From the NCBI GenBank assembly GCA_018062705.1, contig JAGORQ010000001.1, positions 21,624 to 85,623 on the forward strand: DNA of 64,000 bases, given 5' to 3'. Source of the DNA: Candidatus Shapirobacteria bacterium. GTDB taxonomy: Bacteria > Patescibacteriota > Microgenomatia > UBA12405. The notes under the pieces were generated by a model. That model saw only the letters and a program-made list of their open reading frames with translations, made no database searches and was not told the origin of the DNA. The position numbers and the translations under genes were made by a program. Every line of letters starts with the position of its first letter. Position 1 is the first letter of the stretch. Below are positions 10,882 to 64,000 of the stretch, piece after piece.

Positions 10882-12197
10882 TATTTGATAATTGAAGCTT
10901 TAACAATAATGCGAGAGTTAGGATAAGTGACACTACAAGTCATTAGGGCAATTTGATCACCAGTTGTCTTAATTGAGTCGACTTGGGATTTGTCGACAAA
11001 AAGCTTGTCGGTGATTTGGTAGGTTGATACCAAACCGTTATTTTCAGTCATGACTTTGTCACCAATATTTAGAGTAAATAACTGGCTAAAGACACCATAG
11101 CCATTGTGGCCGTAGTAGAGGTTGCCCTCACGTAAAACTTCGTTGTGACCGACAATAAATTGATCGCCAATTTTTTGGGGTAAATAAATTGGTTGGTTTA
11201 AATTAAGGGAGGGAATAATTAGCGCTTGATTAGTGTCGAGAGTATTTCCTGAAGGAAGTTTCTCGGTGGAATAGACCACTTCGGCAGTAGCTGCTAATTC
11301 AGAAGAAGTGCCGAGAACTGATCCACCATAACTATTTTTGATGCCATCAATTAGCGGATTGTTGTTTGTTCTAGCTCCTAGTACTCGAAAACCACCAACA
11401 TTTTGGTTGGTACAAACTACATTACTCGGGCTACCACCACGACAACCGTTTTGGGCCTGAACATAAAAACAATATTTGCCACCAGGATTGAGGGCCTTGA
11501 CAGTGTAAGTGGTGACGTTACCAACATTGGGATCACCATATATATAGTTGCCGGTAGTTGGGCCATAACCAACAGCATAGCTAGTGTGATTGCCAGGAGC
11601 ATGATTCCAAGTTAACAAAACTTTACCTCCACCGAGAGCAATGGCCACTAAATTTTGAGGTGCACCGGGATCTGAATCATTGCATGAAGGAGGATTGTTG
11701 TTCGAATTATTTGAAGGTTGAGGGGTTTGATTCTCCACCTGCGCCGTTGGCTCTGGCGAGACAAAGGGTGTGACTGTGGGAATTATTTGACAACTCTCAG
11801 TCTGTTCACAATTTAGAGTTGGAGTAACTGTTGGGGTATTTGATGGAGAAATAGTAGCTGTAGGGCTGGGATTTGAAGTAATCGTGGGTGAGGGAGTTTT
11901 CGTGGCCGTTGGGGTACGAGTGGGTGTGTTGGTAGGGCGACAATCATCATCGTCATGACGACCATGACGGCCATGTTGATTATCGTCACAATCATCATCG
12001 TGATGATTTGAAGTGGGGGTAGGGGTTGGGGTGCGAGTAGGTGTAGGTGTGCGAGTTGAAGTTGGGGTTCGAGTTGGGGTGGGAGAATTCCATTTTGCCT
12101 CAGAAACAATTTTATTCTGAAAAAATTTAGAATTAATAAAGAACACTTCGATTATTGCTAGTGCAACAATCAGACCTGCTTTGATTGTTTTTACCAT
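10881..12197 (-). CDS. Sortase-family transpeptidase with an N-terminal TM, a Pro/Thr-rich linker containing HDDDDC motifs, and an FN3-like domain
   Basis: C-terminal sortase fold with the active-site motif ALMTCS (TLxTC). (TPTRTPTP)n low-complexity region. FN3-like block ([20 protein letters not shown]...YCFYVQAQN). Confidence 0.7.
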
Positions 12198-57323: not shown

Positions 57324-57375
57324 ACTTGGTTTATTTTTTAATTCAAGAAGAAACGGGAAACTGTATAATGAAATT

Positions 57376-57837
57376 ATGAAATGGATTCAGGGAGTGTTGA
57401 TAGTGCTAGTGCTGGGGGTATGGTGGAACGTGAGACTGGTGGAAAAAAAATTAATTGAGAAACAAAGCAACAAAGTTGAAACAAAAGTAATTGAAGCTGG
57501 GACTGATAATCAAGACTTGGCAATTCAAATTGATAATCTAAAAAAAGAGGTGAATGAACTAAAAAAACAACAGAGTAAAAGTCAGGTACTGGGAGCCAAT
57601 ATTGGTGGGGACCCAACAACTGTCCTGGGCACTGGATTTATCAAAATTCGCGACGAAAAATGGACAACGATAGAGGTGTTTGAAAAACCACTAGCATCGG
57701 CTAAAGTAGTGGGTAGTATTAATTTTGGAAAATTAATTTACTATACCAAGCAAGAACCGGGGTGGTATTTGGTGGAATATTTGGATGGTAAATACGGCTG
57801 GGTGCAAAACCAGTTTATGGAGGAGATAACTGAATGA
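57376..57837 (+). CDS. Membrane-anchored protein with a coiled coil and a C-terminal bacterial SH3-like domain
   Basis: N-terminal TM, coiled coil (DNLKKEVNELKKQQ), C-terminal GWYLVEYLDGKYGWV (SH3b-like). Confidence 0.4.
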   Translation: MKWIQGVLIVLVLGVWWNVRLVEKKLIEKQSNKVETKVIEAGTDNQDLAIQIDNLKKEVNELKKQQSKSQVLGANIGGDPTTVLGTGFIKIRDEKWTTIEVFEKPLASAKVVGSINFGKLIYYTKQEPGWYLVEYLDGKYGWVQNQFMEEITE

Positions 57838-58640
57838 CAATACTAGGCAAAATACTCTACTGGTACAGTTTCTTTTTGCTGATGTTGATATTGGTGTCTG
57901 GATTAGCGCTGGGTAGTGCCAACCGAAACACGGGGACACTAACTATCGTTGGTTTGATGTTGAGTTATTTTGGGTTGAAGAGATTAAAAGTAAAAATACT
58001 GCCAAATATTATAAGTTTTGTAGGGGCAATGGTGGGGATAGTGCTATTGGCAATGAATGCTGGCAGAGCCCAATCCCCTTATCAATTGACATTGGGATTA
58101 ATCTTTGGACCGGTGGCATTATTTTTTTGGCTGGAAATGGCTGAATGGATAGGAGAGGGGTGGAAAAAAATTAATTTGAAAAAATTTAAGAATTTAGAAT
58201 TTAAAAATTTAGAAACTAGAAAAGGAGAAGAAGGAGAAGTGATAAGAAGCAATGTGACTGATGAAGACAGACGGCGGTTTTTAAAAATAGTGGGTGGAAC
58301 TAGCCTAGGAATTGTGGCATTGTCACTAATTAACCCCAAAAAAGCTGGGGCGGCGTTTTTTGGAAGTGTGCCAGGTCCAGGGACAGTGGCCCTAAAAGAT
58401 AGTGGTGGAGTGAAAATTGACCCGGCAATAAAACAACCGACAGATGGATATAAAATTAGCCAGGTGGACGACTCAACTGCACCGGCATATTACGGTTATG
58501 TAAACAACGGTGGTGCCTGGTACATAATGAAGGAAGAAGCAGATGGTAGCTATCGCTATGTGCGAGGCGCAAGTGGATTTTCGACTGGCTGGACAAATAG
58601 GGCGAGTCAAACCTATGATTATTTTGATGCAGTTTTTTAG
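57834..58640 (+). CDS. Membrane protein (4-5 TM) with an extracytoplasmic C-terminal domain; contains an internal twin-arginine-like motif
   Basis: ATGA-coupled to the upstream gene. The internal DEDRRRFLKIVGGTSLGIVALSLI resembles a Tat signal and is preceded by AAGGAG and an in-frame GTG. Confidence 0.4.
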   Translation: MTILGKILYWYSFFLLMLILVSGLALGSANRNTGTLTIVGLMLSYFGLKRLKVKILPNIISFVGAMVGIVLLAMNAGRAQSPYQLTLGLIFGPVALFFWLEMAEWIGEGWKKINLKKFKNLEFKNLETRKGEEGEVIRSNVTDEDRRRFLKIVGGTSLGIVALSLINPKKAGAAFFGSVPGPGTVALKDSGGVKIDPAIKQPTDGYKISQVDDSTAPAYYGYVNNGGAWYIMKEEADGSYRYVRGASGFSTGWTNRASQTYDYFDAVF

Positions 58641-58652
58641 ATATAATGCGGA

Positions 58653-59144
58653 ATGATAATAACTGACATAAATGGTAGCCAACGAGAGTGTGTGGAAACA
58701 CGAATTGACCCGCAATATCCAGGTTTTGTGACGGTGGTATATGCCTCAAAAAACCGACCGGGGGATAAACATGTGGAATGGTATCCGATGGAAGAGTTTA
58801 TGAAGCTGAACCCGGAAGTGGTGACAGTTCTGGGTGGTATGCCAAACACACCAAAGGATGATTTGGGGGTAGTGACCCACGCCGGAGAGATGTACATGGA
58901 GGATACAAAAAAAGATTGGCAAACAAATATCTATGTGGGATTTTATGTTTGGATTTCTCGAGGAGAGGGGGAGGCTCAGGTGCGCTTAATTAAAAGTAAT
59001 AGTAAAAACACATTAACAATAGATAGGGTGTGGGATAAGGTGCCCAACACAACCTCACAGTATGTGATTTCACATAATATTCATGATGTTAAAATATTAG
59101 GTAACGAATTGCCGACTATAAATTTACAAAAAACAAATCAATAA
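58653..59144 (+). CDS. Hypothetical protein
   Basis: 163-aa ORF in the same operon. Confidence 0.4.
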   Translation: MIITDINGSQRECVETRIDPQYPGFVTVVYASKNRPGDKHVEWYPMEEFMKLNPEVVTVLGGMPNTPKDDLGVVTHAGEMYMEDTKKDWQTNIYVGFYVWISRGEGEAQVRLIKSNSKNTLTIDRVWDKVPNTTSQYVISHNIHDVKILGNELPTINLQKTNQ

Positions 59145-59159
59145 TTTTTAACAAAGAAT

Positions 59160-59609
59160 ATGAAAAAGGAATATTGGTTGTTTGTTGCAATAGGATTACT
59201 GGTGTTGGCCTTGGTGATTGATTCGGTGTCAGGACCAATAAATTTGCCAATAAAAAATCAACTAGAATACTTTGACCCGACAATAATGCAAAAATACCCG
59301 TTGACAACAGTGGGGATATTTTTTCGCAGTTTGGGAATTATTGTGGGATATGGACTGCTCTGGTCGTTATTTGAGAGATTGTATGGGATAAAGTTGATTG
59401 CAACCTTTTTGTTGACAGGGTTGATGGAATTGTTTGTGGTGCAACAATTGGCGACAGGGATGAGAACAGTTAATTTTCAGTGGATAATGGCGATTGCTGT
59501 GGCTGGAGCAGGATTTGGGTTGCCATTGGTTTATTACTTTGTAAGATTATTGATCCCATCACCAAGAGTACAAGTGGTGGTAGATGAAAATTCAAAGAGT
59601 GTGTTATAA
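59160..59609 (+). CDS. Hypothetical 4-TM membrane protein
   Basis: Four hydrophobic helices. Confidence 0.4.
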   Translation: MKKEYWLFVAIGLLVLALVIDSVSGPINLPIKNQLEYFDPTIMQKYPLTTVGIFFRSLGIIVGYGLLWSLFERLYGIKLIATFLLTGLMELFVVQQLATGMRTVNFQWIMAIAVAGAGFGLPLVYYFVRLLIPSPRVQVVVDENSKSVL

Positions 59610-59619
59610 GTAGCTAGCT

Positions 59620-60069
59620 ATGAAAAAAATAATAAAGAAGGAAGTGAAGAAAAAGGCGGTGGTGAAACCTGTTGATGTAGTGAAAGTTGAGGAGGTGGTT
59701 TTGGAGGTAAAAAAAGTTGAACCGGTAGTGAAGATTAAACCAGACTTAGTGAGCTTTTATAGTAATAATATTAGATGCACTTTTATGAATAACCAGTGGT
59801 ATTTTTCATTGGAGGATATTTTGAAAGTAGCTAAAGTGGTTGATCCAACTAAGATGCTAATTGAGCTTAAGAACTTAGAATCAATGAAAGACCGTTATTA
59901 TCATATGGTGGAAACTTTTAGTTATTATGATGAAGTTAATCCAGTGGTAATACCAATAGTAAACTATCAGTCTTTTGTGTCGATACTACCGGCAATTAGA
60001 GAAATGAGTTATGGAGTGCCTGGTCCGTTCCCGGAATGGCTGAGGTCAATGGCAAATCGAAAATTTTGA
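59620..60069 (+). CDS. Bro-N/KilA-N-like domain protein with a Lys/Val-rich N-terminus
   Basis: FYSNNIRCTFMNNQWYFSLEDILKVAKV resembles the Bro-N core (F..IR......WF...DV...L). Confidence 0.35.
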   Translation: MKKIIKKEVKKKAVVKPVDVVKVEEVVLEVKKVEPVVKIKPDLVSFYSNNIRCTFMNNQWYFSLEDILKVAKVVDPTKMLIELKNLESMKDRYYHMVETFSYYDEVNPVVIPIVNYQSFVSILPAIREMSYGVPGPFPEWLRSMANRKF

Positions 60070-60119
60070 AGACTGGTGTCTGATAAGTTGAGTTTGGCTT
60101 GCTATAATTTTGGTATCAC

Positions 60120-63100
60120 ATGGCCACGATTACAATGTACAACAGCATCAATATTGATGATGCATTTTCTCCAACTTTCGTTGCCATTGGTTATGGAGTG
60201 ACATCTGGATCATCAACTGCCGACACGACAGGAGCGTGGACTGCTCGGACTTTACCTTCATCATCAAATTGGAATTCTGTTTGTTATGGCAACAAACAAA
60301 TCGTCGCTGTCTCTGGCTCGACCACTGTTGCCGCTACAAGTCCAACTGGTGTTACCTGGACTGCACGTTCCTTGCCAGTTAGTGCTGTTTGGCAGTCGGT
60401 AGTTTATGGTACTCGCTTTGTCGCTATCGCCAATGGATCAACTGATACTGCCTATTCTGTGGACGGAATTAGTTGGACTAGTGGAGGTGCCCTTCCTAGC
60501 TCCGCCGCTTGGTTTTGTTTGGCTTATGGTGAGGGGACCTATGTTGCTGTTTCAACTACATCTTCTACTGCCGCCGCTTATTCAACTGATGCCGGCACAA
60601 GTTGGAACAGTGCTACTCTGCCGGCAACAGGCAATTGGCAATCAGTTACTTATGGCAACGGCACCTTTGTCGCCGTTGCTTATGGTGGAACTGATGCTGC
60701 TTATTCCGCCGATGGCACCACTTGGAATACTGCCACTTTACCCAGTTCTCAAAATTGGTCCAGTGTCACTTGGGGTAATCCAGGCAATACTGCTAACGGT
60801 GTTTTTGTTGCTGTTGCCTATGGTACGGCCATTGGAGCTATTTCCACCAATAATGGTGCCACTTGGACGCAGGTTTCCCTGGCTCCAGACGTGGTTGTAA
60901 ATGGTAGTTTTACAGGAAATGCTGATGGGTGGACTCTTGGTGCTGGTTGGACCTATGGTACCAACAATGTTGTCCATACATCAGGCACGGCTACCATCAC
61001 CCCCAACCCCGCCTTAACAATCGTTGCTGCTACTCAATACGAAGTTACCTATACTATTTCAGGATGTAGCAGTGGTTCAATTACTGCCAGAATTGGCAAC
61101 GTCAATGGTACTGCCAGGTCAACTAATGGCACCTATGTCGAAGTCATCACATCATCAAACACCAACAGCTTGATACTTACTCCTACTACTGATTTTGACG
61201 GAGCTATCGATGATATTAAAGTTCGCTATTCTGCCAACTGGAACTGTATTAGTTATGGAGAAATTTCTGCCCAAGGAGTTAAAGTGTTTACTGTTACTCC
61301 CTATGGACAGGCATTTACCGCAGTTTCCTTTGATGGTACTAACTGGTTTACCAAAACAATATCATCGGCTGCCAACTGGAAATATCACTGCTATGCCCCA
61401 GTAACTTGGAATTCAGGAGACACCCTCTCGATTCAAAATAATGCCACAATTACTGTTAATACAAACCAAACAAAATTTTGGAAAACTTTTACTGCCACTT
61501 ACGGTCAGCTTTCAATTCAAAATTCCAGTACCTCAGCCCCCATTGGCTTTTATATGGGGCGTGTTTCCGCAGCTACTGCCAACGATATTACCCCACTTTC
61601 TGGTGCTTTTAATATTGATATAGATGGTAACTGGATACAAATAGGAACTGGAACTGGTATCGCCGGACAGACCGTAACCGCTTCATTTTCAGAATATATT
61701 CCCAGTTTATGGATCGAGACTGGCAGTGGTACTGGCGTTTATGAAATTTGGAACAATATTACTGGTGCTACCGGTAATTACATGAATTTATTTGGTAAAG
61801 ATGGTCTTGAGTGGGCGGGGAGTGGTAAACAAGGGAACTACTTTGTTCAGACTCCAGCAACTAATCCCACTGAAATATTATCCTTATCTTCTGGTGCCAC
61901 TACCAATCAGTCTTATTTTGTAACGTGTACAGATACTACAGGTGTTTTGCCAGGTGCGTATATTACAGGAACCAATATTCCAGCAAACACGGTTGTTAAT
62001 AAAGTTGTTGATGGCACTACCCTCGAATTAAATGTTGTGTGCACTGCCACTGGTTCTGCATATACTTTTACTGTTTACAACCCTGTTCAATCTCAATGGA
62101 CAACTACAATTGTTTTTGGTAATGGAACCAATGGTAATTTGGTTCCCAGTGGTGCCAAAATTAGACAACCAAATATTTTAATTAGTGATATCACTAATGC
62201 TTCAATTTTGGGAGCCAATCATACAACTCAGGCTTACATTAATATGGGTAATGGTGGTCTAATAGATGCACGAATTTGTCTGTTTGGTGAGTCTTATGTA
62301 AATTTTGCCCAAGCGGCATCTGTTTACTTACGTAATGTTGGGTTTGCCTATCAATGGGCACTTTCAGAGTGTTACTCAGTAGATATGGATGGTATTGGCA
62401 ACGCCGCCAATCCTACTGTTTGGTATTATTCGGGTCAATGGATTATTCGAGACCCTCGTTATGGAATCTTGCCACCTTTTGGCTATACTGCATCTTCAGC
62501 CACAAGCAATGTTTCTATTTCCTACGTCCATAATGCAACTATAAAAAACTGGCACAAAGTAGTTTATTGTTCGGCTTATTTTACAGGCACTTCAATTCTG
62601 ATGCCAATCGACCTGTCATACACTGACGATGCTGTATTTGAAAATATTCGCTCTGTAGTCCTCATGCCACATCGTGCCATCCGCTGTTTTAATATTAGTG
62701 CTCGGGTGTATCGTACCACTTTTACCAACCTTGAGCTTTATGGTGCGAACCCTCTTCAAGTCGCCACCAGTGACAACAATACTTTTGCCGGCATAGAGTA
62801 CTCACTTGATATGTTTAAGCCTATAGTGGCCTTCAAATCAAATCATCGCTTGTCCCAGAAAGCTGATGGCACTCTACTTTCTGACAATGTTCCTGTTTAT
62901 ATAAAAACTCGAACATTTTTTTCTTGGGCGACTCGGGATATGTATTTTGAGTCGGGTGAGTACAGTGCCACTCCTTTTCAAAACAATTGGCTTTTTCCCG
63001 ACATAATTTCTGTCCGACCTACCGAATCTGTCCCTGCATCCGTTACTTTTAACTGGACACAGAGGGAACCTACCGCCGCCACCACCACTGCCTATGAAAT

Positions 63101-64000
63101 TCATAGATCAACATCTGAAGGTTTTACGGCTCGAAATACTGCCACAGCAGTTTTTCGTATTGCCACACCAGCCACAGTTACTTATGCAAATAGTCCCACT
63201 ACACCGGTTGTTGCCGGTGCCCCAAATCTTACATTTAATGTCAACAAGACTATTACAGCAGCATCGGCAATTTGGACTGCAAATGGCTTTGCTGTTGGAG
63301 ACGTGGTCGAAGTGACGGGAACTGTGGCTAATAATGGCACTTACACAATTACTACCCTAACTACTACGGTGATGACGGTCATGGAAACACTGGTTACTGA
63401 AGCAACTTATACTAGCGGTGCTACCGTTACAGGACGACCCCCGACATTAGACACCAAATATTACTACCGCATGCGCAAATTCCACAGCATTACGGCACAC
63501 GTAGACTGTTCTGTTGCTAGCGGTTCTACAACCATGACGTGTTCTAATATCAACACCAACTGGGGGTTTGACAAATTATATGCCGCCAAAGATTTTTATT
63601 ACGATTCTGGCTCTACTGTTATTCGCAACCGAAAATACAATTTATTTGCACTACCTTATTATCTTGGAGCCACCATTACTGGCCCTGGCATTCCCGCAGG
63701 CACAACTATTACTTATATAGACGCGGCCGGACAAAAATATAATATTAGTCAGGCGACCACATCGGCGCAGACAAATGCTACTGTCACTCTTCCAATTCAA
63801 GCTGGCATGGCAGTGGTTTGGCAAATAAACAGACCAGGAGAAGGGCTCCCTTACGGAAATACTGTTGCCAGTGTTGAAAGTGCAACTAGTCTGACCCTGA
63901 ATCAAGCTGCAACCGCTGATATTGCCTATCTTTCCAATGGTTCTTTTACTGGAAATGCTGATGGTTGGACTTTAACAGCTGGTTGGGCTTATGGAAGTAA
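60120..64000 (+). CDS. Giant BNR/Asp-box-repeat surface protein with Thr/Ser/Asn/Gly-rich beta-rich repeats (>1290 aa; 3' end beyond the window)
   Basis: Open frame from ATG 60120 (or 60135) to the window end with no stop. Absent from the ORF track because it is edge-truncated. Six ~45-aa N-terminal repeats each carry an Asp-box (YSVDGISW, YSTDAGTSW, YSADGTTW...) and W.SV.YGNG.FVAV. The internal motif LSNGSFTGNADGWTLxAGWxYG recurs about 3 kb apart (60895 and 63935). Confidence 0.7.
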   Translation, partial: MATITMYNSINIDDAFSPTFVAIGYGVTSGSSTADTTGAWTARTLPSSSNWNSVCYGNKQIVAVSGSTTVAATSPTGVTWTARSLPVSAVWQSVVYGTRFVAIANGSTDTAYSVDGISWTSGGALPSSAAWFCLAYGEGTYVAVSTTSSTAAAYSTDAGTSWNSATLPATGNWQSVTYGNGTFVAVAYGGTDAAYSADGTTWNTATLPSSQNWSSVTWGNPGNTANGVFVAVAYGTAIGAISTNNGATWTQVSLAPDVVVNGSFTGNADGWTLGAGWTYGTNNVVHTSGTATITPNPALTIVAATQYEVTYTISGCSSGSITARIGNVNGTARSTNGTYVEVITSSNTNSLILTPTTDFDGAIDDIKVRYSANWNCISYGEISAQGVKVFTVTPYGQAFTAVSFDGTNWFTKTISSAANWKYHCYAPVTWNSGDTLSIQNNATITVNTNQTKFWKTFTATYGQLSIQNSSTSAPIGFYMGRVSAATANDITPLSGAFNIDIDGNWIQIGTGTGIAGQTVTASFSEYIPSLWIETGSGTGVYEIWNNITGATGNYMNLFGKDGLEWAGSGKQGNYFVQTPATNPTEILSLSSGATTNQSYFVTCTDTTGVLPGAYITGTNIPANTVVNKVVDGTTLELNVVCTATGSAYTFTVYNPVQSQWTTTIVFGNGTNGNLVPSGAKIRQPNILISDITNASILGANHTTQAYINMGNGGLIDARICLFGESYVNFAQAASVYLRNVGFAYQWALSECYSVDMDGIGNAANPTVWYYSGQWIIRDPRYGILPPFGYTASSATSNVSISYVHNATIKNWHKVVYCSAYFTGTSILMPIDLSYTDDAVFENIRSVVLMPHRAIRCFNISARVYRTTFTNLELYGANPLQVATSDNNTFAGIEYSLDMFKPIVAFKSNHRLSQKADGTLLSDNVPVYIKTRTFFSWATRDMYFESGEYSATPFQNNWLFPDIISVRPTESVPASVTFNWTQREPTAATTTAYEIHRSTSEGFTARNTATAVFRIATPATVTYANSPTTPVVAGAPNLTFNVNKTITAASAIWTANGFAVGDVVEVTGTVANNGTYTITTLTTTVMTVMETLVTEATYTSGATVTGRPPTLDTKYYYRMRKFHSITAHVDCSVASGSTTMTCSNINTNWGFDKLYAAKDFYYDSGSTVIRNRKYNLFALPYYLGATITGPGIPAGTTITYIDAAGQKYNISQATTSAQTNATVTLPIQAGMAVVWQINRPGEGLPYGNTVASVESATSLTLNQAATADIAYLSNGSFTGNADGWTLTAGWAYGS

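What the first reader, a model, noticed from the sequence alone, without database searches (positions are those of the whole stretch)
57376..64000. Operon of five small membrane/SH3b/Bro-N-like proteins followed by a giant BNR/Asp-box beta-propeller surface protein
Five translationally coupled genes (stop/start overlaps or 10-15-nt gaps) precede a >1290-aa ORF. Its N-terminus has six Asp-box (S-x-D-x-G-x-T-W) blades and the rest is T/S/N/G-rich beta-repeat sequence with a ~3-kb internal duplication. The Bro-N-like gene hints at phage ancestry. Candidates are a giant adhesin for host or episymbiont attachment, or a phage-tail-fibre-like structure. The ORF track misses this gene because it runs off the window.
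Basis: partly seen in the sequence, partly recalled or inferred. Interest (0 to 1): 0.55.

Follow-up and report, generated by a model that had tools for sequence, protein, structure and literature searches.

The report
Phage-like giant fibre gene cluster
A small symbiotic-type (CPR/Microgenomates) bacterium carries an intact 2,822-residue gene related to virion proteins of large tailed phages, next to conserved small membrane proteins and, in relatives, its own Tat export genes; it probably builds a cell-surface fibre for binding other cells, but that function is inferred, not shown.

Summary
Five tightly packed small genes (57376-60069) precede a giant ORF that starts at 60120. On the source contig this ORF is complete: 2,822 aa with no frameshift. 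Corrections:
- The N-terminal propeller has seven Asp-box-like blades, with a ~110-aa CBM-like module inserted before blade 7.
- The "3-kb duplication" is only that module, repeated 1,011 residues apart.
- SH3b is confirmed.
- Bro-N is not supported by any test.
- The giant protein has no signal peptide, LPXTG motif or TM segment.

The window is chromosomal DNA of a Shapirobacteria-like CPR bacterium, not a prophage. Homologues of the giant protein occur in two settings. One is Microgenomates genomes. The other is tailed-phage contigs, next to terminase, tail-sheath and neck genes, and a rough tree interleaves the two.

The bacterial loci alone add g1-g4, a paralogous ~660-aa module, a 431-aa beta-helix protein, 2-5 tatA genes plus tatC, and a Sec-signal SH3b protein. 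g2 carries a conserved twin-arginine signal after an even number of TM helices. The giant gene is under strong purifying selection (dN/dS ~0.07).

Best reading: a domesticated phage fibre module serving as an envelope fibre or adhesin, possibly exported or anchored through g2 and Tat. That last step is inference. I found no description of the cluster in the literature library.

The parts
57364..57369 (+). TATAAT box 6 nt upstream of the g1 ATG, with no SD sequence; candidate promoter of a g1-g2 unit with a very short or absent leader
   Evidence: Read directly from the sequence. Similar boxes lie upstream of g1 in L002 and L029. This is a consensus match only; function is not shown.
57376..57837 (+). 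g1: 153-aa protein with an N-terminal TM anchor, a coiled-coil-like linker and a C-terminal SH3b domain (probable cell-wall binding)
   Evidence: Pfam SH3_3 E 2.9e-8 at res 101-148. One TM at res 4-22. Homologues lie upstream of the giant gene in 10 of 26 bacterial loci and in 0 of 19 viral loci.
57834..58640 (+). g2: 268-aa membrane protein. It has about 4 N-terminal TM helices and a charged linker, then an internal twin-arginine signal: RRRFLK (res 146-151, nt 58269-58286), a G/S/T-rich h-region, a basic c-region (NPKK) and AGA|AFF. A conserved ~95-aa C-terminal domain follows.
   Evidence: The sequence is and the TM scan. The motif is conserved in 20 of 20 locus homologues. In a 40-sequence alignment D143, R147 and F149 are invariant and L150 and K151 are >=90 % conserved. 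The family has 402 members with E<=1e-3, and every source that names an organism names a Microgenomates lineage. g2 is present in 20 of 26 bacterial loci and 0 of 19 viral loci.
58653..59144 (+). g3: 163-aa soluble protein with no TM and no signal. It has a unique N-terminal half plus one copy of a ~70-aa domain (res ~70-142) that occurs as tandem arrays in many large proteins.
   Evidence: No Pfam, PHROG or PDB hit. 1,348 representative proteins match at E<=1e-3, many with 2-11 matched stretches in proteins up to 7,645 aa. A few of these hit Pfam Phage_BR0599 weakly. g3 is present in 9 of 26 bacterial loci.
59160..59609 (+). g4: 149-aa integral membrane protein with 4 predicted TM helices
   Evidence: TM scan. 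Homologues are in 17 of 26 bacterial loci and 0 of 19 viral loci. g4 also lies next to g2 in all three loci retrieved starting from g2.
59620..60069 (+). g5: 149-aa protein with a Lys/Val/Pro-rich N-terminal tail and a conserved ~105-aa C-terminal domain. It has no TM and is restricted to the Shapirobacteria-like subgroup. The Bro-N resemblance is unconfirmed.
   Evidence: No Pfam family at E<=1, and none at E<=10 for five homologues. No GenBank phage hit. Homologues are 59-69 % identical in L002, L004, L010 and L029.
60080..60108 (+). Best sigma-70-like site of the region: CTGATA, 17-nt spacer, TG-TATAAT. The -10 box ends 11 nt before the giant gene's ATG.
   Evidence: Promoter scan, 10 of 12 matches with a TG extension. 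A 'gctataat' box is also present upstream of the giant gene in L002 and L029. Consensus match only.
60120..64000 (+). Giant gene. The first 1,293 of 2,822 codons are in the window; it ends at window-equivalent 68588 on the source contig.
   Evidence: Frame analysis. The complete ORF is L001:4714-13182, and L001 is 100 % identical to the window over 8,594 nt. The start is supported by conservation of M1, A2, I4, N11 and D13 across 20 homologues. dN/dS is 0.07 against the 81 %-identical orthologue.
60120..60884 (+). Blades 1-6 of an Asp-box-type beta-propeller (res 1-255)
60909..61235 (+). CBM-like ~110-aa module, copy 1 (res 264-372), inserted between blades 6 and 7
   Evidence: Repeated at res 1275-1383. 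tblastn hits genes annotated as tail fibre J, tailspike or 'carbohydrate binding protein' in Rhodobacter and Brucella phages at E 3e-7 to 9e-5. Some relatives carry PF02018 (which I know as CBM_4_9) in precomputed Pfam. No Pfam hit in the query itself.
61236..61403 (+). Blade 7 of the propeller (res ~373-428, Asp-box-like SFDGTNW at 403)
   Evidence: Self-BLAST matches res 337-435 to blades at 139-224. S403, D405, G406 and W409 are invariant or nearly so in the family.
61404..63929 (+). All-beta central region (res ~429-1270), the most widely conserved part of the family. Its fold is not assigned.
   Evidence: AF2 pLDDT is mostly 85-97 up to res ~890 and lower beyond. This region aligns in both bacterial and phage homologues. 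It shows no profile similarity to the NosD-like beta-helix neighbour. The only weak hits are a PHROG 'head protein' (E 0.0018, res 1049-1102) and a PDB 'decoration protein' (E 0.006).
63942..64000 (+). Start of CBM-like module copy 2 (res 1275-1383). Only its first 19 residues are inside the window.
   Evidence: DNA identity between the copies is 77.5 % over the first 80 nt only.

Best explanation
The locus is the upstream half of a gene cluster conserved across Microgenomates. The cluster is built around proteins of phage virion origin that the bacterium has kept for its own use.

SHOWN
- The 2,822-aa protein is intact, chromosomal and under strong purifying selection.
- It is homologous over about 2,100 residues to proteins encoded in virion modules of tailed phages.
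- Bacterial and phage versions interleave in a rough tree.
- Bacterial loci, but no phage locus, add g1 (TM + SH3b), g2 (polytopic, with a conserved internal twin-arginine signal and a conserved C-terminal domain), g3 and g4. Downstream they add a paralogous ~660-aa module, a 431-aa beta-helix protein, 2-5 tatA genes, tatC and a Sec-signal SH3b protein.
- In the query the ~660-aa module is also fused to the giant protein's C-terminus.

INFERRED MECHANISM
- The giant protein, the ~660-aa module and the beta-helix protein lack signal peptides, as phage fibre proteins do. They would therefore fold, and perhaps oligomerise, in the cytoplasm.
- They would then be placed on the cell envelope as a long fibre. 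The conserved N-terminal part would be proximal. The propeller, the CBM-like modules and a fast-evolving C-terminal tip would bind surface glycans of a partner or host cell.
- g2 would be inserted by Sec (its even number of N-terminal helices) and Tat (its RR-preceded last helix), placing its conserved C-terminal domain outside the membrane.
- The co-encoded TatA(n)C would serve g2. More speculatively, it would also serve fibre proteins bound to g2, by hitchhiking.
- g1 and the large SH3b protein would tie the assembly to peptidoglycan.
- Neighbouring Cache/PAS kinases and response regulators would control expression.
For: - Completeness and identity with the window.
- Cellular context. MurJ, MetRS, sortase, DEAD helicase, MacB, DinB-type polymerase, Ldh_2 and MFS are present in the window, and none of the 20 window ORFs scanned against Pfam is a phage hallmark. 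The closest genome is a 949-kb Shapirobacteria MAG.
- Purifying selection. dN/dS is 0.07, and pN/pS rises from ~0.1 to 0.52 in the last 120 residues, as expected for a receptor-binding tip.
- Phage homologues. L006 has gp13/Ad2-like, gp15-like and virion structural proteins. L038 has terminase and tail sheath directly upstream. L045 has a terminase, and it carries the same trio in the same order: giant, ~660-type module, then the N-domain of the beta-helix protein.
- Fold evidence. There are local Foldseek matches (probability 0.99-1.0, 80-91 columns) between the C-terminal module model (pLDDT 90.6) and the LKA1 tailspike gp49 and a T4 baseplate chain. The N-terminus is a 7-bladed propeller.
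- Association counts, bacterial versus viral loci: g2 20/26 vs 0/19, g4 17/26 vs 0/19, TatC 16/26 vs 0/19. Linkage persists although gene order differs (L013, L020). Loci retrieved from g2 alone again show g4 (3 of 3). One of the three shows g3, the ~660-type module, the 431-aa beta-helix protein and TatC/TatA.
- A 96 %-identical strain has the canonical downstream set of 660 aa, 432 aa, 3 tatA, tatC and an 823-aa SH3b protein.
- g2 signal. The RR(KR)xFLK motif, h-region, basic c-region and AxA site are conserved in all homologues, preceded by 2 or 4 TM helices.
- Precedents. Dual Sec/Tat insertion is described in PMC5449189 and PMC3471235. Tat hitchhiking is described in PMC4273604 and PMC10924467.
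Against: - No experiment or expression data exist. Surface location is not shown.
- The giant protein has no signal peptide, RR motif, TM segment or sorting signal. Export is therefore entirely inferred from gene neighbourhood.
- At about 295 kDa per chain it is far larger than any Tat cargo I know of, so hitchhiking is the weakest step.
- The tat genes are not visible on the query contig. There a Cache histidine kinase follows the giant gene directly, and no tat, 660 or 431 homologue lies elsewhere in the 64-kb window.
- No carbohydrate-binding or catalytic family is detected in the query by Pfam. The fold of about 1,700 central residues is unassigned.
- The C-terminal module was modelled on a homologue (P0122, 61 % identical), not on the query itself.
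- Foldseek does not report which residues matched the tailspike or baseplate chains.
- The NJ tree has no support values.
- Some ~400-500-kb 'viral' contigs (the L007 type) showed no hallmark gene in the two neighbours tested.
- In one near-identical strain the gene is split by a net 2-nt deletion.
Confidence: 0.5

Rival explanations
1. Released weapon or tool rather than an anchored fibre. The phage-type fibre proteins accumulate in the cytoplasm and are released by lysis of some cells. Release could alternatively go through holin-like g2/g4 and the wall-binding 823-886-aa SH3b protein. The released proteins would act as free receptor-binding or depolymerising proteins, a 'fibre-only' analogue of tailocins or gene transfer agents.
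For: - The giant, ~660 and 431 proteins lack signal peptides, the ancestral phage condition.
- g1, g2 and g4 give faint PHROG hits to spanin and holin families (E 0.06-0.6).
- The 886-aa SH3b protein hits a PHROG 'amidase' family at its C-terminus (E 1.4e-5).
- A NosD/Beta_helix protein of the kind found in depolymerases is present.
Against: - The PHROG lysis hits are far from significant.
- No endolysin catalytic domain, tube, sheath or baseplate gene is present in any bacterial locus.
- The conserved g2 Tat signal and the co-located tatA/tatC genes are not explained by a lysis route.
- Lysis-dependent release is costly for a cell with a genome of about 1 Mb.
Confidence: 0.15
2. Primarily an enzyme. 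The propeller and central beta regions would form a glycoside hydrolase or polysaccharide lyase (sialidase-like or tailspike depolymerase-like) that degrades a partner's capsule or wall. Adhesion would be secondary.
For: - Asp-box propellers occur in sialidases and other glycosidases. Foldseek lists sialidase, arabinanase and levanase among its hits.
- The CBM-like modules hit phage genes annotated as 'carbohydrate binding protein' or tailspike.
- A neighbouring protein has a Beta_helix/NosD match.
Against: - No catalytic family is detected by Pfam, PHROGs or PDB sequence search.
- The best propeller matches are non-enzymatic scaffolds: Kelch, YCF48, WD40 and YVTN.
- The central region has no profile similarity to the beta-helix neighbour.
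- Catalytic residues could not be assessed.
Confidence: 0.12
3. Anti-phage function. The cell displays or accumulates phage receptor-binding-type proteins, taken from its own phages, to mask receptors or interfere with virion assembly (superinfection exclusion or decoy).
For: - There is close kinship with proteins of phages that exchange this gene with Microgenomates. L006 is 55 % identical over 1,600 residues, and the tree is interleaved.
- CPR bacteria rarely encode CRISPR-Cas (PMC6509639).
Against: - No defence-system test was run (PADLOC was not used).
- A 2,822-aa protein plus a multi-gene export and anchor set is an expensive way to exclude phages.
- Known exclusion proteins are small.
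- The fast-evolving C-terminal tip fits either this reading or the adhesin reading.
Confidence: 0.08
4. Decaying or transient phage DNA. The locus would be a prophage remnant or a recently transferred phage gene with no cellular role.
For: - The phage homology is established.
- The GC3-skew polarity of the giant gene differs from g1-g5 in this genome.
- A near-identical strain has a frameshifted copy.
- Downstream context differs between strains.
Against: - The ORF is intact at 2,822 aa with dN/dS 0.07 while synonymous sites are almost saturated.
- At least 18 full-length orthologues of 64-81 % identity exist.
- The partner genes are conserved and are not phage genes. The loci examined carry no integrase, capsid or terminase.
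Confidence: 0.05
5. Conventional Sec-secreted, sortase-anchored giant adhesin, unrelated to phages.
For: A sortase gene is present in the window. The composition is T/S/G/N-rich, as in many adhesins.
Against: - The N-terminus is MATITMYNSINIDDAF..., with no hydrophobic signal.
- There is no C-terminal LPXTG or TM. The only LPATG is inside the propeller at res 167.
- Phage homology is demonstrated.
Confidence: 0.03

Closest known systems
Phage tail fibres and tailspikes / baseplate-attached receptor-binding proteins (e.g. Pseudomonas phage LKA1 gp49, PDB 4ru4; T4 baseplate chains 5iv5_BJ and 5hx2_A)
   Same: - Homologues are encoded in virion modules of tailed phages.
- There is no signal peptide.
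- The architecture is modular and all-beta, with a conserved N-terminus and a fast-evolving C-terminal end.
- The CBM-like module is shared with annotated tail fibre and tailspike genes.
- A ~90-residue stretch of the C-terminal module superposes on 4ru4 and on the T4 baseplate chain.
   Different: - Here the gene is chromosomal, in a locus with no capsid, tail-tube, sheath, terminase or integrase gene.
- It is flanked by cellular membrane, SH3b and (in relatives) Tat genes.
- No PHROG or GenBank-phage family covers res ~430-2200.
- Its position in the virion (tail, neck or head fibre) is unknown.
Substrate-dedicated TatA-TatC systems encoded with their cargo in Gram-positive bacteria (Bacillus subtilis phoD-tatAd-tatCd; from my own knowledge, not checked here)
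   Same: A minimal TatA/TatC set, without a recognisable TatB, is co-located with a protein carrying a canonical RRxFLK signal.
   Different: - There are 2-5 tatA paralogues in a row.
- The RR signal is internal, following 2-4 TM helices.
- The neighbouring large proteins have no signal at all.
- Tat dependence is untested.
Dual Sec/Tat-inserted polytopic membrane proteins (actinobacterial Rieske proteins and the families described in PMC5449189 and PMC3471235)
   Same: An even number of N-terminal TM helices is followed by a cytoplasmic loop, a twin-arginine motif, a last moderately hydrophobic helix and a globular C-terminal domain.
   Different: - The g2 C-terminal domain is small (~95 aa) and has no recognisable cofactor-binding motif. 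The known examples export cofactor-containing domains.
- An AxA site after the h-region could allow cleavage.
Tat 'hitchhiker' export of signal-less partners (E. coli PaoABC, PMC4273604; heterodimeric substrates reviewed in PMC10924467)
   Same: Signal-less proteins are encoded beside one RR-signal protein and a Tat system.
   Different: Known hitchhikers are compact redox enzyme subunits. Here the candidate cargo would be 431-2,822-aa fibre proteins. No interaction has been tested.
Phage-derived domesticated structures (R-type tailocins, gene transfer agents, contractile injection systems)
   Same: Phage virion genes are retained under selection in a bacterial chromosome for a cellular function.
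   Different: Those systems keep tube, sheath and baseplate (and capsid in GTAs) and are released by lysis or secretion as particles. This cluster keeps only fibre-type proteins and adds membrane, SH3b and Tat genes.
Adhesion-type proteins shared between CPR/DPANN cells and their viruses (concanavalin/LamG-domain proteins, PMC11310336) and giant genes of ultrasmall or predatory bacteria (bioRxiv 10.1101/2023.11.21.568195)
   Same: The idea is the same: viruses of symbionts and the symbionts themselves share cell-attachment proteins, in small-genome bacteria that encode very large proteins.
   Different: This is a different protein family. The specific g1-g4 / ~660 / 431 / Tat cluster did not come up in my full-text searches. 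I searched the first paper only for adhesion and LamG passages, and I know the second only from its title and abstract in the search listing.
Asp-box (BNR) beta-propellers such as YCF48/HCF136 and sialidases
   Same: The S-x-D-x-G-x-x-W motif repeats every ~40 residues. The model is a seven-bladed propeller. YCF48 is the Foldseek hit with the highest sequence identity, 17 %.
   Different: Pfam BNR models do not match. A CBM-like module is inserted before blade 7. The propeller is the N-terminal domain of a 2,822-aa chain. No catalytic residues were identified.

Membership tests
Asp-box (BNR) beta-propeller | Repeated S/T-x-D-x-G-x-(T)-W motif at blade spacing | tested here: met
   Seven motifs start at res 33, 73, 113, 155, 196, 242 and 403, with ~40-45-aa spacing. 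Several are degenerate (TADTTGAW, TSPTGVTW, STNNGATW).
Asp-box (BNR) beta-propeller | Beta-propeller fold | tested here: met
Asp-box (BNR) beta-propeller | Match to curated BNR/sialidase sequence models | tested here: not met
   No Pfam family at E<=1 for the window part or at E<=5 for the full length. Distant relatives carry other precomputed Pfam families on their propeller arrays (PF03736, PF25852, PF03478).
Phage tail fibre / tailspike (receptor-binding protein) | Encoded within a virion structural module | tested here: not met
   Not met for this locus, where the neighbours are cellular. Met for homologues L006, L038 and L045. The protein is therefore a homologue of phage virion-module proteins, not a phage gene in situ.
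Phage tail fibre / tailspike (receptor-binding protein) | Structural similarity to a known fibre, spike or baseplate attachment domain | tested here: inconclusive
   Local Foldseek hits of the modelled C-terminal-module homologue reach 4ru4 (probability 1.00, 91 columns) and 5iv5_BJ (probability 0.99, 80 columns, 20 % identity). The matched positions are not reported and there is no global match.
Phage tail fibre / tailspike (receptor-binding protein) | Conserved proximal part and variable distal (C-terminal) tip | tested here: met
   pN/pS is 0.09-0.16 over the first 1,800 codons and rises to 0.28 and 0.52 in the last two 300-codon windows. The N-terminal residues are nearly invariant across the family.
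Phage tail fibre / tailspike (receptor-binding protein) | Homotrimeric fibre assembly | not testable with these tools
   Only monomer prediction was available.
Tat (twin-arginine) substrate: g2 | S/T-R-R-x-F-L-K motif followed by a moderately hydrophobic h-region | tested here: met
   The g2 sequence is DEDRRRFLKIVGGTSLGIVALSLI. The motif is RR, or KR in one sub-branch, in all 20 locus homologues. R147 and F149 are invariant, and L150 and K151 are >=90 % conserved in 40 sequences.
Tat (twin-arginine) substrate: g2 | Basic c-region and AxA-type site | tested here: met
   The sequence NPKK-AGA|AFF is conserved as (T)KK-A-x-A-AFFGS in the family.
Tat (twin-arginine) substrate: g2 | tatA/tatC present | tested here: inconclusive
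   TatA_B_E and TatC Pfam families appear in the cluster of relatives: L002, L004, L005, L049 and L051, and TatC in 16 of 26 bacterial loci. They are not seen in the query's window or on the 14.6 kb of its contig that could be read.
Tat (twin-arginine) substrate: g2 | Tat-dependent export shown experimentally or by a dedicated predictor | not testable with these tools
   No TatP/SignalP-type tool and no assay were available.
Dual Sec/Tat-inserted membrane protein: g2 | Even number of TM helices before the RR motif, so that the motif is cytoplasmic | tested here: met
   The hydropathy scan plus direct reading gives about 4 helices in the query and 2 in shorter homologues. This is an approximate method. 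A few homologues have no N-terminal helix.
Bro-N domain (PF02498): g5 | Match to the Pfam Bro-N model or to annotated Bro/antirepressor proteins | tested here: not met
   No Pfam hit for g5 at E<=1 or for five homologues at E<=10. PHROG best E is 0.066, to a family of unknown function. tblastn against 50,697 phage records finds nothing at E<=10. The fold was not tested.
SH3b (PF08239): g1 | Score above the curated Pfam cutoff | tested here: met
   SH3_3 scores 34.2 bits against a cutoff of 27, E 2.9e-8, at res 101-148.
Sec/sortase-anchored giant adhesin | N-terminal signal peptide | tested here: not met
   There is no hydrophobic N-terminal segment. The only hydropathy peak in 2,822 residues is at res 1306-1324, inside the second CBM-like module.
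Sec/sortase-anchored giant adhesin | C-terminal LPXTG plus hydrophobic tail | tested here: not met
   The C-terminus is ...TAIRTTDSIVS. The single LPATG, at res 167, lies in the propeller.
Carbohydrate-binding module (CBM_4_9-like): res 264-372 and 1275-1383 | Match to a curated CBM model, or a fold match | tested here: inconclusive
   No Pfam hit in the query. Relatives carry PF02018 in precomputed Pfam. tblastn hits phage genes annotated 'tail fiber J', 'carbohydrate binding protein' or 'tailspike' at E 3e-7 to 9e-5. The domain could not be searched separately by fold.
Prophage | Integrase, terminase, capsid or tail genes nearby | tested here: not met
   The 20 window ORFs scanned against Pfam are cellular or unassigned. 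The precomputed Pfam of the L002, L004, L005 and L049 neighbourhoods shows none.

The most novel reading that the evidence does not exclude
Microgenomates (CPR) bacteria assemble a cell-surface appendage from domesticated phage fibre proteins. These proteins fold in the cytoplasm and are moved across the membrane by a dedicated multi-TatA Tat translocon. They ride on, and stay tethered to, a dual Sec/Tat-inserted membrane protein (g2). This would be a previously undescribed appendage-assembly pathway, would involve by far the largest Tat cargo known, and would serve to attach these episymbiont-type cells to their partners.
Probability: 0.2. Interest if true: 0.88.

Novelty: new variant of a known kind. 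Interest (0 to 1): 0.62.

Why it matters
How CPR/Patescibacteria cells attach to partner cells, and what they attach to, is largely unknown outside Saccharibacteria.

This cluster offers a concrete and widespread candidate. The g2 family has 402 members and the C-terminal module family at least 450. The giant gene has at least 18 full-length close orthologues, and the cluster is found in bins labelled as several Microgenomates lineages.

The cluster has parts that can each be tested: a Tat signal, SH3b anchors and a variable tip.

It also documents repeated exchange of a ~2,000-residue structural protein between Microgenomates and large tailed phages. That exchange can be used to link those phages to hosts.

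If Tat really handles fibre proteins, it would extend the known limits of that pathway. If it does not, the cluster is still a clean case of phage receptor-binding proteins recruited by a minimal-genome bacterium. None of its main proteins has a significant Pfam or PHROG match.

Tried and rejected
- Bro-N for g5 is rejected at the sequence level. Pfam gave nothing for g5 at E<=1 or for five homologues at E<=10. PHROGs and tblastn against GenBank phages also gave nothing.
- BNR, sialidase and any other Pfam family for the giant protein: no hit.
- A large internal duplication is rejected. hhalign of family profiles for res 380-1270 against 1386-2200 gives probability 12 %, with only a 25-column FN3-like motif (Y-EIY-STS-GFT). 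Only the 110-aa module is duplicated.
- My own guess that res 430-900 and 1600-1900 are tailspike-like beta-helices is not supported. There is no profile similarity to the NosD/Beta_helix neighbour. The long strands in the AF2 model do not look like a beta-helix. The question is left open.
- PDB sequence searches found nothing useful. The queries were the giant protein, the A1 profile, the C-module profile, the g2 and g3 profiles, and a g3-repeat protein. The only hit was a weak 'decoration protein' match at E 0.006.
- Both whole-model fold searches of the 1-1200 model were swamped by propeller hits.
- PHROGs gave no hits for the ~660, 431, phage 636, phage 148 and related proteins.
- tRNA and Rfam scans of the window found nothing, so there is no tRNA integration site.
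A 96 %-identical strain was used instead.
- Prophage is rejected on the gene content of the window and of the related loci.
- Sec/sortase adhesin is rejected.
- Literature searches for the cluster found no description.

Full report
OBSERVATION. The coordinates are right.
- Five + strand ORFs of 153, 268, 163, 149 and 149 aa lie at 57376-57837, 57834-58640, 58653-59144, 59160-59609 and 59620-60069.
- g1 and g2 overlap by 4 nt. The next gaps are 12, 15 and 10 nt.
- One frame is open from ATG 60120 to the end of the window, 1,293 codons. The ORF lister omits it only because it runs off the window.
- Looking up g5 by exact sequence returned the source contig, Logan SRR11088367_52141 (24,357 bp). 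It is 100 % identical to the window over 8,594 nt.
- On that contig the gene is complete: 2,822 codons, no internal stop, ending at window-equivalent 68588. A dCache/HisKA/HATPase kinase follows it.

ORGANISM AND CONTEXT.
- The window encodes MurJ, MetRS, a sortase-FN3 protein, a DEAD-box helicase, HlyD/MacB, PMT_2 glycosyltransferases, a DinB-type polymerase, Ldh_2 and an MFS transporter.
- No phage hallmark gene appears among the 20 ORFs scanned against Pfam. No tRNA or Rfam RNA was found.
- The closest relative of the giant protein (81 % identity, full length) lies on a 949-kb contig of a Candidatus Shapirobacteria MAG. That taxon belongs to the Patescibacteria / Microgenomates group.
- The locus is therefore chromosomal DNA of a CPR bacterium, not a prophage.

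ANATOMY OF THE GIANT PROTEIN.
- Residues 1-255 contain six repeats of ~40-45 aa with Asp-box-like motifs.
- A ~110-aa module (res 264-372, NGSFTGNADGW...FDGAIDDIKV) follows. Then comes a seventh blade with SFDGTNW at residue 403.
- An AlphaFold2 model of res 1-1200, built with 56 homologues, has mean pLDDT 84.9 and is all-beta.
- Pfam BNR models do not match.
- The inserted module recurs at res 1275-1383 (53 % identity; hhalign E 4e-45). The ~900-residue regions after the two copies are not detectably related.
- The module hits phage genes annotated as tail fibre J, tailspike or carbohydrate-binding protein at E 3e-7 to 9e-5. Some relatives carry PF02018, which I know as CBM_4_9.
- Residues ~2200-2822 are a paralogue of a free-standing ~550-720-aa protein family with at least 450 members.
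- A model of one such protein (P0122, 61 % identical, pLDDT 90.6) is a chain of beta domains. It has no global PDB match. It does have local high-probability matches to the LKA1 tailspike gp49 and to a T4 baseplate chain.
- The giant protein has no signal peptide, RR motif or TM segment. It has no C-terminal LPXTG.

RELATIVES IN TWO WORLDS. The family has 554 hits with E<=1e-3 among the candidates scored, and at least 18 full-length orthologues of 64-81 % identity. It is found in two settings.
- The first is bacterial MAGs. Those with informative labels are Shapirobacteria, Levyibacteriota and the 'Patescibacteria group'. Several TPA assemblies are labelled Gammaproteobacteria or Saccharibacteria. 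I doubt those labels, because the contigs carry the same Microgenomates-type neighbours.
- The second is IMG/VR viral contigs of 25-494 kb, plus a 406-kb contig.
- In L006 the homologue is 55 % identical over res 1-1603. It sits after genes matching head-tail adaptor Ad2/T4 gp13 and the tail sheath stabiliser gp15, and before a 'virion structural protein'.
- In L038 the homologue follows a terminase and a tail sheath gene. In L045 a terminase (E 1e-82) lies nearby.
- L045 also has the same three genes in the same order as the bacterial loci: giant, a ~660-type module, then a protein sharing the N-domain of the bacterial 431-aa beta-helix protein.
- A rough neighbour-joining tree of the N-terminal 1,100 residues interleaves bacterial and viral sequences. 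It has no support values.
- GenBank phages and PHROGs do not cover the central ~1,700 residues.

CONSERVED BACTERIAL NEIGHBOURHOOD. I compared 26 non-redundant bacterial loci with 19 viral loci.
- g2 occurs in 20 bacterial loci, g4 in 17, g1 in 10, g3 in 9, g5 in 6, TatC in 16 and TatA in 14. None of these occurs in any viral locus.
- The canonical order in Shapirobacteria-like genomes is: g1-g5, giant, a ~61-aa Cys-rich protein, a ~660-aa module, a 431-aa NosD/Beta_helix protein without a signal, three tatA genes, tatC, an 823-886-aa protein with a Sec-type signal and SH3_3 domains, and a ~130-aa membrane protein.
- A strain 96 % identical in DNA to the query over the last 5.4 kb of the giant gene has exactly this downstream set. 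The query contig diverges 15 nt after the stop codon and carries a kinase instead.
- No tat, 660 or 431 homologue lies elsewhere in the window.
- Linkage to tat persists where gene order is rearranged, as in L013 and L020.
- As an independent test I retrieved three loci starting from g2. All three have g4 adjacent. Two have SH3_3 proteins directly upstream of g2, and in the third the upstream protein matches g1's SH3b region by BLASTP. One also shows g3, a 1,031-aa ~660-type protein, the 431-aa beta-helix protein, tatC and two tatA genes, without a giant gene within 10 kb.
- The core therefore appears to be g2/g3/g4 plus the fibre-type proteins plus Tat, with the giant protein as a frequent member.
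- Cache/PAS histidine kinases, response regulators and LytR_C proteins recur beside the cluster.

THE SMALL PROTEINS.
- g1 has an N-terminal TM helix, a coiled-coil-like linker and an SH3b domain.
- g2 has about four TM helices and a charged linker, then DEDRRRFLKIVGGTSLGIVALSLINPKKAGA|AFF and a ~95-aa domain. The RR(KR)xFLK motif, the h-region, the basic c-region and the AxA site are conserved in all homologues.
- The g2 C-terminal half is 50-60 % identical between lineages whose giant proteins share only 30-38 %. The number of preceding helices is even, 2 or 4.
- This is the architecture described for membrane proteins inserted jointly by Sec and Tat (PMC5449189, PMC3471235).
- Every source that names an organism for a g2 relative names a Microgenomates lineage: Levybacteria, Amesbacteria, Collierbacteria or the Microgenomates group.
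- g3 is soluble. Its last ~70 residues are a domain found in tandem arrays in 1,348 representative proteins of up to 7,645 aa. A few of these weakly match Pfam Phage_BR0599.
- g4 has four TM helices.
- g5 has a lysine-rich tail and a conserved domain. No test links it to Bro-N.

SELECTION AND COMPOSITION.
- Against the 81 %-identical orthologue the giant gene has dN/dS 0.07, with synonymous sites near saturation. pN/pS rises to 0.52 in the last 120 residues.
- The same two genomes share only 32-62 % identity in g1-g5.
- In this genome the third-position GC skew switches sign exactly between g5 and the giant gene. g1-g5 score +0.34 to +0.71, while the giant gene scores -0.28 and the kinase -0.34.
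- In five related genomes (L002, L004, L005, L018, L029) every g1-g5 homologue present and the giant gene share a negative sign.
- Together with the divergent downstream context, this suggests either a replication-terminus-like skew switch or a recombination breakpoint at about 60.1 kb.

MECHANISM.
- Shown: an intact, selected, chromosomal homologue of phage virion-module proteins; a bacterial-only set of membrane, SH3b and Tat partners; and a canonical Tat-type signal in g2.
- Inferred: the fibre-type proteins fold in the cytoplasm, as phage fibres do, and are installed on the envelope as a fibre. The propeller, the CBM-like modules and the variable tip would bind glycans of another cell. g2 and TatA(n)C would provide export and/or the membrane anchor. 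The SH3b proteins would tie the assembly to the wall.
- The weakest step is Tat transport of signal-less proteins of 431-2,822 aa by hitchhiking. The precedent (PMC4273604, PMC10924467) involves only compact enzymes.
- Rivals are release by lysis as free fibres, a mainly enzymatic role, an anti-phage decoy, a decaying prophage and a classical Sec/sortase adhesin. The last two are contradicted by tests made here.

COMPARISON AND NOVELTY.
- The locus behaves like a domesticated phage receptor-binding module. It is not a tailocin, GTA or contractile injection system, because it has no tube, sheath, baseplate or capsid genes. It is not a prophage.
- In my understanding it resembles substrate-dedicated TatAC operons of Gram-positive bacteria, and it matches the architecture of dual Sec/Tat membrane proteins. 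The combination with giant fibre proteins did not come up in three full-text searches of the held library.
- The nearest published idea I found is that CPR viruses carry concanavalin/LamG adhesion-type proteins (PMC11310336).
- I therefore rate it a new variant of a known kind, with a minority reading (a Tat-assembled appendage) that would be categorically new.

LIMITS.
- The function is inferred from homology and neighbourhood only.
- The tat genes are not seen in the query itself.
- The central folds are unassigned.
- Some large 'viral' contigs (the L007 type) showed no hallmark gene in the two neighbours tested.
- MAG taxonomic labels are uneven.

Noticed in passing
window ~60,070-60,120 (g5/giant junction); whole-window profile: Strand-compositional polarity switches here. 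Cumulative GC skew rises steadily from 0 to 5.2 over 60 kb and then falls. Third-position GC skew is +0.34 to +0.71 for g1-g5, but -0.28 for the giant gene and -0.34 for the kinase after it. In five related genomes (L002, L004, L005, L018, L029) the g1-g5 homologues present and the giant gene share one sign. The switch coincides with a jump in identity to the Shapirobacteria MAG (32-62 % for g1-g5, 81 % for the giant). This points to a terminus-like skew switch or a recombination/replacement breakpoint.
   Followed up: partly
window 57364-57369, 58642-58647, 60103-60108: TATAAT boxes lie 5-11 nt upstream of the ATG of g1, g3 and the giant gene, with no Shine-Dalgarno sequence. Only g2 has a clear GGAGGAG. 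Similar boxes occur in L002 and L029. This suggests about three transcription units with very short or absent leaders, rather than one coupled operon.
   Followed up: partly
L049:2700-2712 (equivalent to giant codons 1915-1917; outside the window): A strain 96 % identical in DNA has a net 2-nt deletion that splits the giant gene into overlapping 946-aa and 892-aa ORFs. The site is not a homopolymer. It is either an assembly error or real inactivation in that strain.
   Followed up: partly
L001:13184-14663 (just beyond the window) versus L049:5441 onward: The query contig and the near-identical strain diverge 15 nt after the giant gene's stop codon. The query has a dCache/HisKA kinase. The other strain has the canonical 660-aa / 432-aa / tatA x3 / tatC / SH3b set. 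Cache/PAS kinases, response regulators and LytR_C proteins recur next to the cluster in many loci, which suggests a regulatory module.
   Followed up: partly
window 58860-59078 (g3 residues ~70-142): This ~70-aa domain (W-I-SRG-x-GEGQ-x-R ... PD-x-TSQYVIS) is a very widespread repeat. 1,348 representative proteins match at E<=1e-3, often with 2-11 tandem copies in proteins up to 7,645 aa. It has no Pfam family of its own. A few carriers weakly hit Phage_BR0599, and others carry PAD or pectate-lyase-like domains.
   Followed up: partly
L005:7473-7838 (- strand), next to a giant homologue: A 121-aa gene has precomputed Pfam hits to 23S_rRNA_IVP and, weakly, bAvd (the accessory protein family of diversity-generating retroelements). 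It sits beside a 695-aa unannotated gene directly upstream of the giant gene. A DGR link was not examined.
   Followed up: no
L002:18458-18643 and equivalents in L004, L029: A conserved 61-84-aa Cys-rich protein (CTGGCG...C...GC...C.C, zinc-ribbon-like) lies between the giant gene and the ~660-aa gene in Shapirobacteria-like loci. It has no family match.
   Followed up: no
one search hit list (P0193, P0235): Free-standing homologues of the C-terminal module also occur in bins labelled Woesearchaeota (211-kb contig) and Thorarchaeota. This reflects either phage contigs binned with archaea or a wider host range of the module.
   Followed up: no
L007 and L033-L035, L040 (370-505-kb contigs): These very large contigs are classed as viral by IMG/VR. 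They carry a 1,784-aa homologue next to a 2,494-aa multi-glycosyltransferase, sugar-nucleotide enzymes, an intein-containing PhoH and a Volactin/MreB-like gene. The two neighbours tested gave no PHROG hit. Whether these are huge phages or small cellular genomes is unresolved.
   Followed up: partly
window 10884-12197 (- strand): A 438-aa protein combines an FN3 domain with a C-terminal sortase domain. This shows that the genome has sortase-type surface display, which the giant protein does not use.
   Followed up: no
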